From Octopus vulgaris (Eukaryota): DNA of 64,000 nucleotides. Positions 6,125 to 63,936 of the stretch are shown in pieces. Position 1 is the first letter of the stretch. Each line of letters opens with the position of its first letter. A model generated the notes under the pieces. It saw only the letters and a list, made by a program, of their open reading frames with translations. It was not told the DNA's origin and ran no database searches. The DNA lies in NCBI GenBank assembly GCA_951406725.2, contig OX597819.1:37324001-37388000 (forward strand). The letters are read 5' to 3'. The position numbers and the translations under genes are program-made.

Positions 6125-6400
6125 ATATATGAGTACAGGACACCAAAAGGACGTCGAACACAATGAGAAACGAAAACATAGACAAAAACCAAAGGAATTG
6201 GACATTTTTTTAAACAACAAAAACATAGAGTACAGGACAATTAACACAAAGAAAAAACCACTTCTTCAGTCGCTATGGTTTCATCTACTCTACATTTCGA
6301 AGGATAAAAGCGAGACGTATCTTCGACAAGAAACTTTCCTTCCTGCGAAAAGCAAATCAATTAAAATTCTGAGATCTTTTCGCAGAGGGGTAAAAAATGG
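6125..6400 (-). mobile_element. (TA)n-embedded element, family related to 17680-17856 and 41230-41415
   Basis: Shares GTACAGGAC...CTTC.TCAG...ATCTACTC..CATTTCGA with those copies. Flanked by (TA)n. Confidence 0.55.
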
Positions 6401-6900
6401 TATATATATATATATATATACATACATACATACATACATATATATTTATATATATATATATATATATATATATATATATATATATATATATATAGTGCGC
6501 ACCGTCTGTGTGTGTTTACGCTTCTGCCGCTTGAAGCTAGTGACGTTGTTGACACACAGTAATATAGTAGTTCGACAAATGCACATAAGCCAAATCAGTA
6601 CCAAACTACTAGAGTCGGTATGGTCCAGTAATAGTACCCTTGTAATACCCAGCATGAGTACTGCAATCCAATTACTGATGAGAAACGAAATCAATAAACG
6701 AACCATACTTAATTTAAAATATTTAGTTATCAGTTTTTCGAATAATGAAAATGATGTAAAATCTGTATCTCTAATAAGTTGTCATCGATTTCGTTTCATA
6801 GTTTACCTGTCAATTGCATTATGAATATTGTAAATTTCATCTCTTCGATTTCGTTCTATAGTTTGGACAATGACACAAAAGATAGGTAGGTAGGTAGGTT

Positions 6901-7134
6901 AAGGCGGCGAGCTGGCAGAAACGTTAGCACGCCGGGCGAAATGCCTAGCGGTATTTCGTCTGCCGCTACGTTCTGAGTTCAAATTCCGCCGAGGTCGACT
7001 TTACCTTTCATCCTTTCGGGGTCGATTAAATAAGTACCAGTTGCGCACTGGGGTCGATATAATCGACTTAATCCATTTGTCTGTCCTTGTTTGTCCCCTC
7101 TGTGTGTAGCCCCTTGTGGGTAGTAAAGAAATAG
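6901..7134 (+). mobile_element. SINE family A, full length, inserted in (GTAG)n
   Basis: GGCGGCGAGCTGGCAGAAACGTTAGC head, GAGTTCAAATTCC B box, family core and tail. Confidence 0.9.
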
Positions 7135-7848
7135 GTAGGTAGGTAGGTAGCTATGTAGGTAGGTAGGTAGGTAGGTAGGTAGGTACTACTGTATTAATAT
7201 ATAGATTTAGCCAGACAACGTTTCTTTGCCGCAATAAATCATAAATACAGATAAGAACTTTCACTATTTTCTCAATGGAACCTTGATAATTGACACTTGC
7301 TATTATTAAATTGTTCGTTTATGAAATAAATAAATCCTATTTTTTGGAATATGGTTTGGATATTCACAATAATTGCAACATTTGGTTTCAGGTAAAACTG
7401 CTTAATATAAATACTTTGCGTCTTGTGTCTCAATTAAATCTAAATTCATAAAATTAATATTTCAGCCGTATAATATATATATATATATATATATATATAT
7501 GTTGTATTTTTCTACATACCTTAATATATATATATATATATATATATAGCCCTAAAACGATGACATATTTTGAAAATTTCGTTTTTCTGAATGGTTACAA
7601 ATTATTAGCTTATGAAAAAGATGGTGAGATTTTGTTCACAATTGTTGTATGTATACAAATATCTGTGGGGGCATAAGTATGTGCGTGTACGTACGTTTCC
7701 ATATATGCATGTATACATATACGTGCGTACATACATACATACATACATACATACATACATACATACATACATACATACATACATACATACATACATACAT
7801 ACATACATTAATGTAAATACTAATAACGTGGGTTTGGTACTCAATATA

Positions 7849-8415
7849 TCGGGTTGTCCGGAAAGTCCGTGCCGATTTATAGTAGCTTACCTTTCGACTT
7901 ATTTTAGAACATGGTTGAGTCTAGAAAATAGAATTTGACTACACCTCCATTTAGAGCACAGTTTAAGATATCTTTTCGTGGAAGAAAGTTTAAGTTCCTA
8001 TAACCTGTGTTAATTCTGTAACCCTTTAAAATGGAAGATAAGAAAGTCTATTTTCGGCACTTGATGCTTTGGGAACCAGACAAAAATTGCTGCAGCTCGG
8101 CTGGGATGTGTTACCCCACCCTCCATATTCACCAGATATTGCTCCTTCGGATTTCCATTTATTCAGGTCTCTGCAGAATAGTCTTAATGGTAAAAAATTT
8201 TTATTCCTTGGATTGCGTAAAAATATACCTTGATGAATTCTTTGCCATGAAACCACCTCAATTCTGGGAAGAGGGTATTTTCAAGTTAAAGGAAAGATGG
8301 AGATGCATTGTGCAACAAAATGGTTCGTATTTAATTGATTAAAAATGTAATGGCAAGTATTTATTGACCATTTTCTTTCCTTTAAAAATCGGCACGAACT
8401 TTCCGGACAACGCAA
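7849..8415 (+). mobile_element. Internally deleted mariner DNA transposon
   Basis: ~30-bp TIRs (TCGGGTTGTCCGGAAAGTCCGTGCCGATTT / AAATCGGCACGAACTTTCCGGACAACGCAA) and TA TSD. The transposase N-terminus (MEDKKVYFRHLML) is joined to the C-terminal WDVLPHPPYSPDIAPSDFHLF motif. Confidence 0.92.
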
Positions 8416-8457
8416 TACATATGCTTAAGAATAAAGCATTGGTTGAGTACAAAGCGT

Positions 8458-60830: not shown

Positions 60831-61897
60831 TCTGTTATTCTTTTATATGTTTCAGCCTTGAGGTTGTGGCCATGCTGGATCATGTGTGTGTGTGTGTGTG
60901 TGTGTGTGTGTGTGTGTGTGTGTCTATCTGTCTGTCTGTCTGTATGTATATATGTATATGTATGTGTGTGAACAATAATATTTTCAACAGATGTGTTGCA
61001 AATGTATCTGATTGTTCTCAAGCTTCAATACTGTGTGTGTGTATGTGTGTGTGTGTATGTATGTATGTATATGTATGTATGTATGTATATGTATGTATGT
61101 ATGTGTGTATGTATGTATGTGTGTGTATGTATGTGTGTGTATGTGTGTGTGTGTGTATGTATGTATGTATGTATGTATGTATGTATGTATGTATGTATGT
61201 ATGAGTGTATGTTTACTTTATTACTAATTACTCTCTTCCAAGAACATTTTCACTCACTCTTAGCTCTTAGCTTCCCATACATTTTACTCATGTATCTATC
61301 AGCGTCATAGACAGAATACTTTCACTTTAGTCTTCCTCAAATCACTCTGTCGCTATTTACTTTCATTTTATTCGTTGCCCACTGTGTGTGTGCGTTTGCG
61401 TGTGGTGTAAACCAGACTAAGAAAAGCATTTGACACACACACCAGAATGTGAGTTTTCTGTAAATTTTGCTTAATTGGAGTTTAAATTTTAAAAACTGGA
61501 CCTGGCATGACGCGATGCATTGTACTCTTAAAACTGCTAGGTAAATTGTAATTGAAGAAATCCTATATTGTAGATTTGTATAACTCCCAAAGGGAGGCAG
61601 ATAAAATCTGCCTTTTATAATAAGAGATATACATACATATATATATATATATATATATATATATATATATATATACATATATATATATATAGCAGCAATA
61701 ATAATTCTCTAAAAGAGATATAGACAGTAACTGCTCGATAACATAAGGGACTAAAGCCATCTGAATATGGCTAGGGACAGGGCAGGGTGGTGGGGGTGTT
61801 ACTGTTGCATTTAGCCCCAGGCGAACATCGACGTCGCTAGATAGGCTTGACACCGTCACGGTGTCCTTTAACCTGCAAAGGGAGATAATTCCCCGAT

Positions 61898-61971
61898 GAA
61901 GCGGAAACCACACACGGACCATGGTTTCAAGGTGTATTGCCTATCGTCAACGTGTGGTAGGCCTCCGCTTC
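61898..61971 (-). ncRNA. Type-I hammerhead ribozyme motif (C3U variant)
   Basis: Reverse complement of 62372-62445. Predicted cleavage at 61917. Confidence 0.75.
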
Positions 61972-62371
61972 CTCGACGAAATCTCACTCTGCAGGTTATT
62001 CATATATAGATTTTCAAGCAAAATACATTTGCTGATTTCGAAAATCTGTTCGACAGCAATAATAATTCTCTAAAAGAGATATAGACAGTAACTGCTCGAT
62101 AACATAAGGGACTAAAGCCATCTGAATATGGCTAGGGACAGGGCAGGGTGGTGGGGGTGTTACTGTTGCATTTAGCCCCAGGCGAACATCGACATCGCTA
62201 GATAGGCTTGACACCGTCACGGTGTCCTTTAACCTGCAAAGGGAGGAGCAGTTACTGTCTATATCTCTTTTAGAGAATTATTATTGCTGTCGAACAGATT
62301 TTCGAAATCAGCAAATGTATTTTGCTTGAAAATCTATATATGAATAACCTGCAGAGTGAGATTTCGTCGAG

Positions 62372-62445
62372 GAAGCGGAGGCCTACCACACGTTGACGAT
62401 AGGCAATACACCTTGAAACCATGGTCCGTGTGTGGTTTCCGCTTC
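62372..62445 (+). ncRNA. Type-I hammerhead ribozyme motif (C3U variant)
   Basis: cacacg-TTGACGA-t-agg-caataca-cct-t-GAAAC-catg-GTC-cgtgtg. Stem I is extended by gaagcgga/tccgcttc. Confidence 0.75.
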
Positions 62446-62496
62446 ATCGGGGAATTATCTCCCTTGCAGGTTAAAGGACACCGTGACGGTATCAGC

Positions 62497-63936
62497 CTTC
62501 TCCATACGCCAACTTCAGGAGAAGTCCAGAGAGCAGAAAATGCCATTATATATGGCCTTCATTGATCTAACAAAGGCTTTTGACTCGGTAAGCAGAACAG
62601 GCCTCTTCATCCTGCTCCAAAAATCGGATGTCCACCAAAGCTGCTGAGGATCATCAAGTCTTTCCATGATGACATGCAAGGCACCATACAGCACAACGGT
62701 TCAACATCAGCCGCCTTCCAAATAAAAAACGGGGTAAAGCAAGGTTGTGTCCTCGCTCCTACATTGTTTGGCATCTTCTTCTCGCTCTTACTTTCACATG
62801 CCTTTCAGACATCAGACGATGGAGTGTTTCTGCACAGTAGAAGTGACGGGAAACTGTTCAATCTCTCGCGCCTGCGTGCCAAGACCAAAATCAGAAACGT
62901 CCTGATCAAGGAGATGTTATTTGCTGATGATGCCGCTCTGGTAACACACACAGAAGAAGCCCTCCAAAGGCTCATTAACTGTTTTGAGCAAGCATGTAAC
63001 GACTTTGGCTTAGCTATCAGCCTTAAGAAGACCAACATCATGGGCCAGGCTACATCGGACATCCCAAACATACATATTGGAGACCACAGATTACAAGAGG
63101 TGGAGAAGTTTACCTATCTGGGCTCTACCGTCACCTACAACCTATCCCATGACGCTGAGCTCAATATACGCATTGGCAAGGCAGCTGCTGCGATGGCCCA
63201 ACTCTCCAAACGGGCTTGGGACAACAATAAGCTGACCAAGACCACGAAAATGAAGATCTACCAGGCATGTGTACTCAGCACTCTACTGTATGGAAGTGAG
63301 ACCCGGACGCTATACACACGCCAAGAGCGTCGCCTAAACATCTTTCACCTGCGCTGCCTCCGAAAAATCCTCCGCATCAAAAGGCAGAATCATATCCCCA
63401 ACAAAGATGTCCTCAGGCAAGCAGGAATACCAAGCATGTTTGCACTCCTCACACAAAGACGTATGAGATGGCTTGGGCATGTTAGCCGTATGAAAGATGG
63501 CAGAATCCCCAAGGACATACTCTACGGAGAGCTTGCTAGGGGTGCTAGGTCTGTGGGTAGACCGATCTTACGTTACAAGGATGTTTGCAAAAGGGACATG
63601 AAGGCCTGCAACATCAATATTAGCGGTTGGGAGGCAGTTGCCGGCAACCGTGGAGAATGGCGACGTACCGTAAAAGAGGGAATACAAAGGAGTGACAGAG
63701 AGAGAGAGGAGAAATGGAAAGAAAGGAAGAGACGTTAACAAGTGACTATGGCACTACAACCAGCCAGGAACAGTCTTCGCTACATTTGCGGTACCTGCCA
63801 GAGGGAGTGTTTGTCCAGGATAGGACTACACAGCCACAGCAGGAAATGTATCAGGACATGAAATATAAAAGCCGGACTAGACTACTTGTGCGCAACTCCA
63901 TTGTCTCCCGAGACAGAAAGGATGCCAACCAACCAA
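62497..63936 (+). mobile_element. 5'-truncated RTE-clade LINE
   Basis: FSIRQLQEK..FIDLTKAFD, one frameshift at ~62620, then ORF 62674..63738 (GVKQGCVLAPTLF, LFADD, RWLGHV). A premature stop precedes CGTC..HSH. (CCAA)n tail. Confidence 0.95.

What the first reader, a model, noticed from the sequence alone, without database searches (positions are those of the whole stretch)
6125..62498. Many distinct hammerhead-bearing families converge on (TA)n microsatellites
At least five sequence-unrelated families carry recognisable cores: 11.7 kb, 19.2/51.1 kb, 40.8/41.5 kb, 53.7/18.7 kb and 61.9 kb. Weaker ones occur at 6.3/17.7/41.3 kb, 8.5 kb and 11.4 kb. Nearly all end in or beside (TA)n. Inference: a microsatellite-targeted ribozyme retroelement system in which TA tracts are landing sites and may be extended or duplicated on insertion. 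That could contribute to the very high TA density.
Basis: inference. Interest (0 to 1): 0.75.

Follow-up and report, generated by a model that had tools for sequence, protein, structure and literature searches.

The report
Penelope-type ribozyme repeats target TA
These hammerhead-shaped RNA motifs are real and sit at TA repeats far more often than chance; two families are the ends of Penelope-like jumping genes already known to favour TA, two are small non-coding repeats likely copied by the same enzymes, and one of those has its hammerhead parts in a scrambled order I found described only from environmental RNA, predicted but not shown to cut.

Summary
Observation largely confirmed; the system is known. 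In a position-spaced 1-Mb genome sample, 38 of 56 hammerhead-family insertions touch (TA)n, against 75 of 507 SINE-type controls and 8% of random intervals. The 11.7 and 53.7 kb families are 3' pseudo-LTRs of Hydra-type Penelope-like elements (endonuclease frame upstream in longer copies). Craig 2021 already lists such an element in Octopus with a hammerhead and (TA)n preference. The 61.9 kb and 6.3/17.7/41.3 kb families are non-coding tandem units (retrozyme-like) with the same insertion footprint. Insertions duplicate 12-18 nt of target (6 of 47 records, permutation mean 0.35), about 3% of TA bases by my lower-bound estimate; the window's TA density is average. The 8.5 and 11.4 kb candidates fail. 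The surprise: the 'weak' 6.3/17.7/41.3 kb motifs are complete hammerheads in the non-circular S-G-C order, three stems supported across 28 copies, at least 2,518 copies. Cleavage untested. This scan noted both the system and the rewired motif before, in other windows and genomes.

The parts
11604..11838 (.). Family A: fold-back of two 3' pseudo-LTR ends of a Hydra-type Penelope-like element; type I hammerhead on each strand (cores 11,740 - and 11,772 +); long end left, short end right, (TA)n on both sides
   Evidence: 3,572 exact core matches; endonuclease frame ends about 1,070 nt upstream of the core in long copies
53333..53880 (.). Family D: fold-back of 3' pseudo-LTR of a second Hydra-type element; type I hammerheads with long stem II (cores 53,606 - and 53,759 +); (TA)n on both sides
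   Evidence: endonuclease upstream in L005, L015, L017, L020, L025
18600..18828 (+). Old relative of family D; first core strand lost, probably dead
61692..62498 (.). Family E: retrozyme-like non-coding unit of about 360 nt in tandem plus inverted arms; type I hammerheads with U at position 3 (cores 61,950 - and 62,393 +); left end in (TA)n, right end cut by an RTE-like LINE
19150..19300 (-). Family B copy, type I hammerhead (core 19,251); no TA tract within 500 nt
50870..51143 (+). Family B copy, type I hammerhead with U4C core (51,098), 3' end truncated; TA-rich tract at its 5' side
40760..40950 (+). Family C copy, minimal type I hammerhead with U4C core (40,823), ends directly in (TA)n
41420..41640 (+). 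Old relative of family C (70% identical), stem I broken; ends in (CA)n then (TA)n
17640..17862 (+). Family F copy: S-G-C ordered hammerhead (C strand at 17,749), ends directly in (TA)n
41229..41420 (-). Family F copy: S-G-C ordered hammerhead (C strand at 41,355)
6052..6400 (-). Family F2 copy: S-G-C ordered hammerhead (C strand at 6,269) with long tail; (TA)n on both sides; longest relatives are non-coding units of about 800 nt that begin with their own tail sequence
41034..41145 (+).
8459..8618 (.). Decayed palindrome with only the G12-A14 strand and cleavage-site half of a hammerhead; not next to a TA tract; rejected as a ribozyme
11222..11360 (.). Inverted repeat enclosing a TA tract; no hammerhead core, no homologue in held loci; rejected

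Best explanation
The motifs are hammerhead-bearing 3' ends of Penelope-like retrotransposons (families A and D) and of short non-coding repeats (E, F/F2; B and C unassigned) that are likely copied by the same enzymes, which likely cut (TA)n DNA and prime reverse transcription there. Shown: TA adjacency, two fixed 3' ends per family 44-150 nt apart, inverted arms with one short and one long end, 12-18 nt target duplications, an upstream GIY-YIG-type frame for A and D, intact RT+endonuclease elements in the genome that also end in TA. Inferred: the endonuclease makes a staggered cut in a TA tract; each cut strand primes at one of two internal RNA sites downstream of the ribozyme, giving head-to-head arms; early termination leaves mostly ribozyme-tip fragments; the hammerhead processes multimeric or circular RNA and plays no part in choosing the site. 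Repeated use of the same tract strings different families together, which looks like convergence but is shared machinery.
For: Enrichment: 38 of 56 vs 75 of 507 controls vs 8.4% random; both sides 9 of 56 vs 7 of 507 vs 0.6%. 29 of 30 position-ordered A copies meet TA; 27 of these do so exactly 41 or 112 nt after the matched core, two a few nt beyond the long end or within the tail counted separately by eye, and all 8 inverted pairs have one short end and one long or truncated-long end. E arms start at unit positions about 306 and about 350 in most of 31 loci and run past one unit length. Endonuclease frames; Hydra hallmarks (CxxC before E, CxH after N, no CCHH) match section 11 and the supplement alignment of PMC8557442. 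Intact 781-aa RT+GIY-YIG frames in many copies whose 3' ends carry hammerheads and join TA and whose 5' truncations abut TA in 8 of 22. Target duplication 6 of 47 vs permutation mean 0.35, maximum 3 in 2,000. Two internal start sites and the tail are shown in vitro for a lizard element (PMC11167929), where ribozyme mutants still inserted.
Against: No coding partner was found for B or C, and which enzyme moves E and F/F2 is not shown. Pfam did not recognise the A endonuclease (0 families for 2 proteins) and gave D only E 7e-4, below cut-off; the clade call rests on motifs read by eye and one BLAST, with no tree. Non-hammerhead repeats also sit at TA: SINE2 32 of 139, RTE 3' ends 2 of 2. Family B touches TA in 1 of 3 sample insertions and at neither ribozyme-side end in the window. 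One real two-ended copy with an interrupted left flank (L214) shows no duplication, and several of the 47 records are internal junctions of E, not termini. The lizard enzyme primes without homology and is Poseidon-clade, so transfer of its mechanism is an analogy.
Confidence: 0.88

Rival explanations
1. The TA tracts are made by the elements: an encoded tail or reiterative, telomerase-like addition by the reverse transcriptase builds the microsatellite at each end, and this drives the genome's TA content.
For: Tracts beside hammerhead families are longer than beside controls (median 34 vs 18 nt, p 7e-4). Summed flanks of 26 young A copies (median 66) exceed a length-weighted background tract (median 32), still p 0.02 after removing 16 nt. 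A few ends run into (TC)n that begins with the two letters sometimes seen after the long end (L056, L374, L391), as stuttering would give.
Against: Tract interruptions are copied on both sides, so the tract pre-existed; TA abuts arbitrary 5' truncation points; short and long ends do not differ in tract length (Wilcoxon p 0.13); a preference for long tracts explains the same length data; window and genome have the same TA density.
Confidence: 0.15
2. Chance adjacency in a TA-rich genome, or survival of any repeat next to microsatellites.
For: 13 tracts per 10 kb; SINE ends are also above random and make the largest TA-flank clusters (48, 26, 11 members).
Against: Odds ratio 12 over other repeats; TA begins at the exact element end in 29 of 30 A copies; one control element touches TA in 0 of 13.
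Confidence: 0.02
3. The palindromic copies (11.7 and 53.5 kb) are DNA-transposon MITEs that insert at TA dinucleotides and carry two ribozymes as cargo.
For: 110 genomic copies share the exact fold-back junction of the 11.7 kb copy, 15 are 100% identical over 195 nt.
Against: These are 220 of 3,572 core matches; other copies have different junctions or arms 3-4 kb apart with an endonuclease frame; the two outer ends differ; duplications are 12-18 nt, not 2.
Confidence: 0.03
4. An independent, ribozyme-guided retroelement system in which unrelated families converged on (TA)n without Penelope-like proteins.
For: DNA of the families does not align; B, C, E, F have no coding frame attached in the copies seen.
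Against: A and D carry related Hydra-type endonucleases; all families share the Penelope tail-and-inversion footprint; ribozyme cut sites lie well upstream of the insertion ends.
Confidence: 0.04

Closest known systems
Hydra-clade Penelope-like elements, incl. Hydra-1_Obim of Octopus bimaculoides (Craig et al. 2021, PMC8557442; passages, section 11, supplement searches)
   Same: C-terminal endonuclease without CCHH and with CxxC/CxH motifs, type I hammerhead, (TA)n insertion, tandem and inverted copies, tail at one end
   Different: A and D are other families (hammerhead sequence differs from the listed Hydra-1_Obim one); here young, thousands of copies, tails of 71 and about 150 nt rather than 30-40; target duplications could be read (12-18 nt), which that paper often could not discern for Naiad/Chlamys
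Minimal hammerheads in Penelope pseudo-LTRs (Cervera and de la Pena 2014, PMC4209133; passages)
   Same: Type I order, palindromic stem III implying dimer cleavage, extra nucleotide between 9 and 10.1, U3-A8 variant (seen in the 781-aa element), mostly single truncated motifs, some opposite-strand pairs
   Different: U4C and U3-with-G8 cores here; S-G-C order in F/F2
Animal non-LTR retrozymes (Cervera and de la Pena 2020, PMC7229834, passages; Li, Clavereau and Pollet 2026, 10.64898/2026.07.22.740005, part 1 of 5)
   Same: Non-coding tandem units with one hammerhead each, proposed to derive from and depend on Penelope-like elements
   Different: E and F/F2 show the two-armed Penelope footprint in TA tracts; 'microsatellite' and 'inverted' have 0 occurrences in PMC7229834; circular RNA not tested here
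Type-SGC hammerheads, HRIMA-1 and variants (Eckert et al. 2023, PMC10085705; passages)
   Same: Strand order S-G-C, intact core, covarying stems I-III, an additional helix
   Different: Those were not found in genomes of known organisms; these are in an animal genome in at least 2,518 copies, with the Penelope-type extra nucleotide after A9; cleavage was shown there, not here
Poseidon element of Anolis, in vitro (Frangieh et al. 2024, PMC11167929; parts 1-2 of 4)
   Same: Two adjacent internal start sites define the tail; both DNA strands cut and extended; AT-rich targets
   Different: Other clade; not a (TA)n specialist; hammerhead overlaps the frame start

Membership tests
EN+ Penelope-like element (families A, D) | GIY-YIG-type endonuclease frame upstream of the pseudo-LTR | tested here: met
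   Pfam weak for D, none for A; A vs D E 5e-13 (92)
EN+ Penelope-like element (families A, D) | Reverse transcriptase in the same frame | not tested
   held loci reach only 1.5 kb upstream; tandem period of about 3.35 kb for A leaves room
EN+ Penelope-like element (families A, D) | Tandem or inverted copies with a tail at one end | tested here: met
Hydra clade | No CCHH; CxxC and CxH around the conserved E and N | tested here: met
   translations read
Hydra clade | CxCX5C linker, DKT and RWK motifs, placement in a tree | tested here: inconclusive
   only the end of the linker is in the held A loci; no tree built
Hydra clade | (TA)n insertion | tested here: met
Neptune-type element (781-aa frame elsewhere in the genome) | RT + zinc-finger linker + CCHH GIY-YIG, hammerhead in 3' repeat | tested here: met
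   clade name from motifs, no tree; not linked to any window family
Non-LTR retrozyme (E, F/F2) | Non-coding head-to-tail unit with one hammerhead | tested here: met
   E; F2 longest copies begin with their own tail and show no frame matching the Penelope proteins tried
Non-LTR retrozyme (E, F/F2) | Type I hammerhead | tested here: not met
   met for E, not for F/F2, which are S-G-C; F/F2 work like retrozymes but are a variant
Non-LTR retrozyme (E, F/F2) | Circular or self-cleaved RNA in cells | not testable with these tools
   only assembled contigs were offered
Type-SGC hammerhead (F/F2) | S, G, C strands in that order with conserved core | tested here: met
   alignment A1; A15.1-U16.1 in 28 of 28
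Type-SGC hammerhead (F/F2) | Stems I, II, III supported by compensatory change | tested here: met
   stem III 4 of 5 and stem I 6 of 6 pairs with two-sided change; stem II 98% paired, G10.1-C11.1 in 27 of 28, 1 of 4 pairs two-sided; related sequences, best of three registers tried
Type-SGC hammerhead (F/F2) | Site-specific self-cleavage | not testable with these tools
   bench assay needed
Families B and C as Penelope ends or retrozymes | Attached coding frame or tandem unit | tested here: inconclusive
   B extends about 800 nt upstream without a matching frame; C copies are short

The most novel reading that the evidence does not exclude
An animal genome holds thousands of Penelope-mobilised retrozymes whose ribozyme is an active, non-circularly permuted (S-G-C) hammerhead with three ordinary stems plus an extra helix, so far described only from environmental RNA; with a stem III of five pairs it could cleave as a monomer, unlike the dimer-dependent type I motifs beside it, and such wiring would explain why descriptor searches miss hammerheads in some Penelope-like lineages.
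Probability: 0.65. Interest if true: 0.72.

Novelty: new variant of a known kind. Interest (0 to 1): 0.5.

Why it matters
The headline idea is right but in print: hammerhead-bearing Penelope-like elements prefer (TA)n, Octopus included. What this genome adds is testable detail. Young families give exact start sites, a strict short-end/long-end rule for inverted arms and readable 12-18 nt duplications, which constrain how these elements make their inversions and point to them as the movers of retrozymes. The S-G-C hammerhead, if it cleaves, brings a ribozyme topology known from metatranscriptomes into a named animal retroelement context with thousands of natural variants. The data also bound the microsatellite claim: duplication adds TA, but only a few percent on present counts.

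Tried and rejected
Rfam scans gave only microRNA-like hairpin noise in the rows shown and nothing at gathering score. The repeat finder was swamped by microsatellites; self-BLAST replaced it. A one-arm DNA search for family A returned nothing because common words are skipped; pattern counts replaced it. The S-G-C descriptor alone is not above chance in the 1-Mb sample (8 vs 4, 5, 6; 5 vs 0, 0, 4); the case rests on the alignment and on 2,518 pattern matches vs 0 for the reversed pattern. Three stem II registers were counted: using the last two core letters in the stem (80% paired), no extra nucleotide (76%), one extra nucleotide (98%); the last was chosen after reading PMC4209133, so an 'opened core' is not needed for this family. 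9 of 37 candidate rows were left out of the alignment (3 false matches, 1 offset duplicate, 5 further copies). Single-strand folding recovers the hammerhead-like fold for D and E only (z -3.2, -3.3) and not for the pseudoknotted F/F2. The 781-aa element is not the parent of any window family. Sequencing runs: no RNA holder listed; nothing was laid. Empty-site comparison was not done: no second haplotype was on hand. The MITE reading and the 8.5 and 11.4 kb candidates were rejected as above. A link of F/F2 to Naiad elements was not tested. PMC5785218 is not held and nothing is taken from it. Target duplications were not examined in the 8 position-ordered A pairs, and a full-length A element was not read.
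Full report
Setting. The window is G000:C6:37,324,001-37,388,000 of a 2.8-Gb genome; I infer an octopus from size, repeat content (recalled) and the match of its elements to those listed for Octopus in PMC8557442. Tracts of at least 5 TA units cover 3.3% of the window and 3.2% of 100 evenly spaced 10-kb samples (12.8 vs 13.1 tracts per 10 kb), so the window is ordinary for this genome.

The motifs. A type I descriptor requiring all three stems finds 5 cores in the window (D twice, E twice, B once) and 16 in the 1-Mb sample, against 0, 1 and 1 in shuffles. Families A, C and the second B copy are complete by inspection and in their relatives. All type I motifs have a palindromic or near-palindromic stem III, and several an extra nucleotide after A9, the hallmarks given for Penelope hammerheads in PMC4209133 (passages). 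The 18.7 and 41.5 kb copies are decayed; 8.5 and 11.4 kb fail.

Association with (TA)n. In the sample, 38 of 56 insertions of nine hammerhead references (two of which had no hit) touch a tract on at least one side and 9 on both, against 75 and 7 of 507 for six SINE-like families and one other repeat, and 8.4% and 0.6% of random 200-nt intervals. Copies taken in chromosome order, blind to flanks, agree: 29 of 30 for A, 26 of 30 for F2. Controls are not at background: one SINE reaches 32 of 139, and SINE ends form the largest clusters of TA flanks. B is the weakest family (1 of 3).

Landing site, not tail. For an intact element elsewhere in the genome, 8 of 22 different 5' truncation points abut TA directly and 4 are inversions; random positions give 2.7% by a similar rule. 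Where a tract is interrupted, the interruption recurs on both sides: 6 of 47 two-ended records show duplications of 12, 12, 13, 15, 15 and 18 nt, against a permutation mean of 0.35 and a maximum of 3 in 2,000. Most records are pure TA and uninformative, several are internal junctions, and one informative copy (L214) shows none. With 56 insertions per Mb and about 15 nt each, duplication accounts for roughly 840 of 31,600 TA bases per Mb, about 3% (my arithmetic, lower bound because more families exist). Flanking tracts are longer than expected, which fits either a preference for long tracts or further growth; I could not separate these.

What the families are. D extends upstream, in 5 of 30 loci clearly, into an endonuclease frame. 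A has 3,572 exact core matches, often in inverted or tandem pairs 3.1-4.2 kb apart, and long copies carry an endonuclease frame ending about 1,070 nt before the core. Both proteins lack CCHH and have CxxC and CxH around the conserved E and N, the description of the Hydra clade, resemble the supplement alignment by eye and are 28% identical to each other. That paper says almost all Hydra families insert into (TA)n and carry canonical hammerheads, and its supplement lists Hydra-1_Obim, and three Octopus Naiads, with (TA)n preference. The genome also holds many intact 781-aa RT plus GIY-YIG frames of Neptune type whose ends carry hammerheads and meet TA. E is a non-coding unit of about 360 nt whose arms run past one unit length; the longest F2 copies are about 800-nt non-coding units that begin with their own tail. 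No parent was found for B or C.

Footprint and mechanism. Each family has two fixed 3' ends downstream of the ribozyme (A 71 nt apart, E 44, D about 150). Insertions are often two outward-facing arms; in all 8 inverted A pairs among the position-ordered loci one arm has the short end and the other the long end, one of these cut short. PMC11167929 (parts 1-2) shows that a Penelope-like protein cuts both strands of AT-rich DNA, starts at two internal RNA sites that define this tail, and does not need ribozyme cleavage in vitro. I infer a staggered cut in a TA tract, priming from both strands at the two sites, and frequent early termination. Different families then share one tract in chains (for example L027, L138, L272, L286). 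The 11.7 kb fold-back junction recurs exactly 110 times, 6% of A arms: a hot spot or a re-copied fold-back, not a MITE.

The rewired hammerhead. In 28 copies from several subfamilies (28 of 37 candidate rows) the cleavage-site strand comes first, the G12-A14 strand second and the C3-A9 strand last. Stem III has two-sided changes in 4 of 5 pairs and stem I in 6 of 6; slid controls fall to 41-59% paired. A further helix links the flank upstream of the S strand to the G-C linker (85% paired despite an alignment offset). A strict pattern for part of this group gives 2,518 matches against 0 reversed. Caveats: the rows are related and were picked by motif, the descriptor alone is near chance, and nothing was assayed. 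PMC10085705 (passages) reports cleaving type-SGC ribozymes and states that none came from genomes of known organisms; it mentions Penelope only in a reference. One search (hammerhead, permut, Naiad, Penelope, type-SGC; at least 3 terms; 20 papers, 19 listed) showed 'type-SGC' in that paper alone; searches found no octopus-specific study of hammerhead repeats. Subscription papers and those supplements were not seen.

Verdict. The microsatellite-building claim is supported only for a small duplication. The S-G-C family is the part that lies outside what I found in print. Interest 0.5.

Noticed in passing
window 56,850-57,020 (-): A repeat with 3 homologues in held loci fits the S-G-C descriptor (C strand at 56,930; stem I 7, stem III 4); possibly a second rewired family, not next to TA.
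   Followed up: partly
L320:20-130(+), L084:about 65(+): Another, more divergent S-G-C-like motif with 6-7 bp stems I and III; left out of the alignment.
   Followed up: partly
window 62,499-63,935 (+) and 51,480-53,030 (-): Two RTE-like LINE copies; the first joins family E directly at 62,498 and ends in a TA tract of about 100 nt, after which no E sequence resumes in the 900 nt read. RTE 3' ends touch TA in 2 of 2 sample hits.
   Followed up: partly
L121-L127 3' ends: The intact 781-aa element carries a hammerhead with the U3-A8 core swap and has a second, upstream coding stretch; several copies look intact.
   Followed up: partly
L056, L275, L374, L391, L392: Element ends that run into (TC)n or one to two TC units before (TA)n, possibly reverse-transcriptase stutter.
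   Followed up: no
L142, L144, L197, L208 (cluster of 16): An abundant relative of family C ends in TA and appears to have a changed A6 in its core; activity doubtful.
   Followed up: no
window 22,797-22,905; 17,886-18,062; 53,920-54,055: Further repeat ends bounded by TA, the first a palindrome with 19 hits in held loci; probably more Penelope-type or SINE termini.
   Followed up: partly
window 12,393-12,835, 23,583-24,000, 24,434-24,878, 27,458-27,917, 30,361-30,733, 35,327-36,121, 43,207-43,635: A repeat with short terminal inverted repeats and internal telomere-like hexamers, many copies in the window; touches TA in 0 of 13 sample insertions, a useful negative control.
   Followed up: partly
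window 7,844-8,420: Mariner-like deletion derivative with 38-nt terminal inverted repeats (family label recalled).
   Followed up: no
L149, L190, L198 (cluster): A repeat end with a subterminal hairpin typical of Helitron 3' ends (recalled) also abuts TA tracts.
   Followed up: no
L342/L343, L035/L048, L272/L273: Duplicated loci (segmental duplicates or haplotigs) with the same insertion; TA lengths differ in at least two pairs, so tracts change, or are mis-assembled, after insertion.
   Followed up: no
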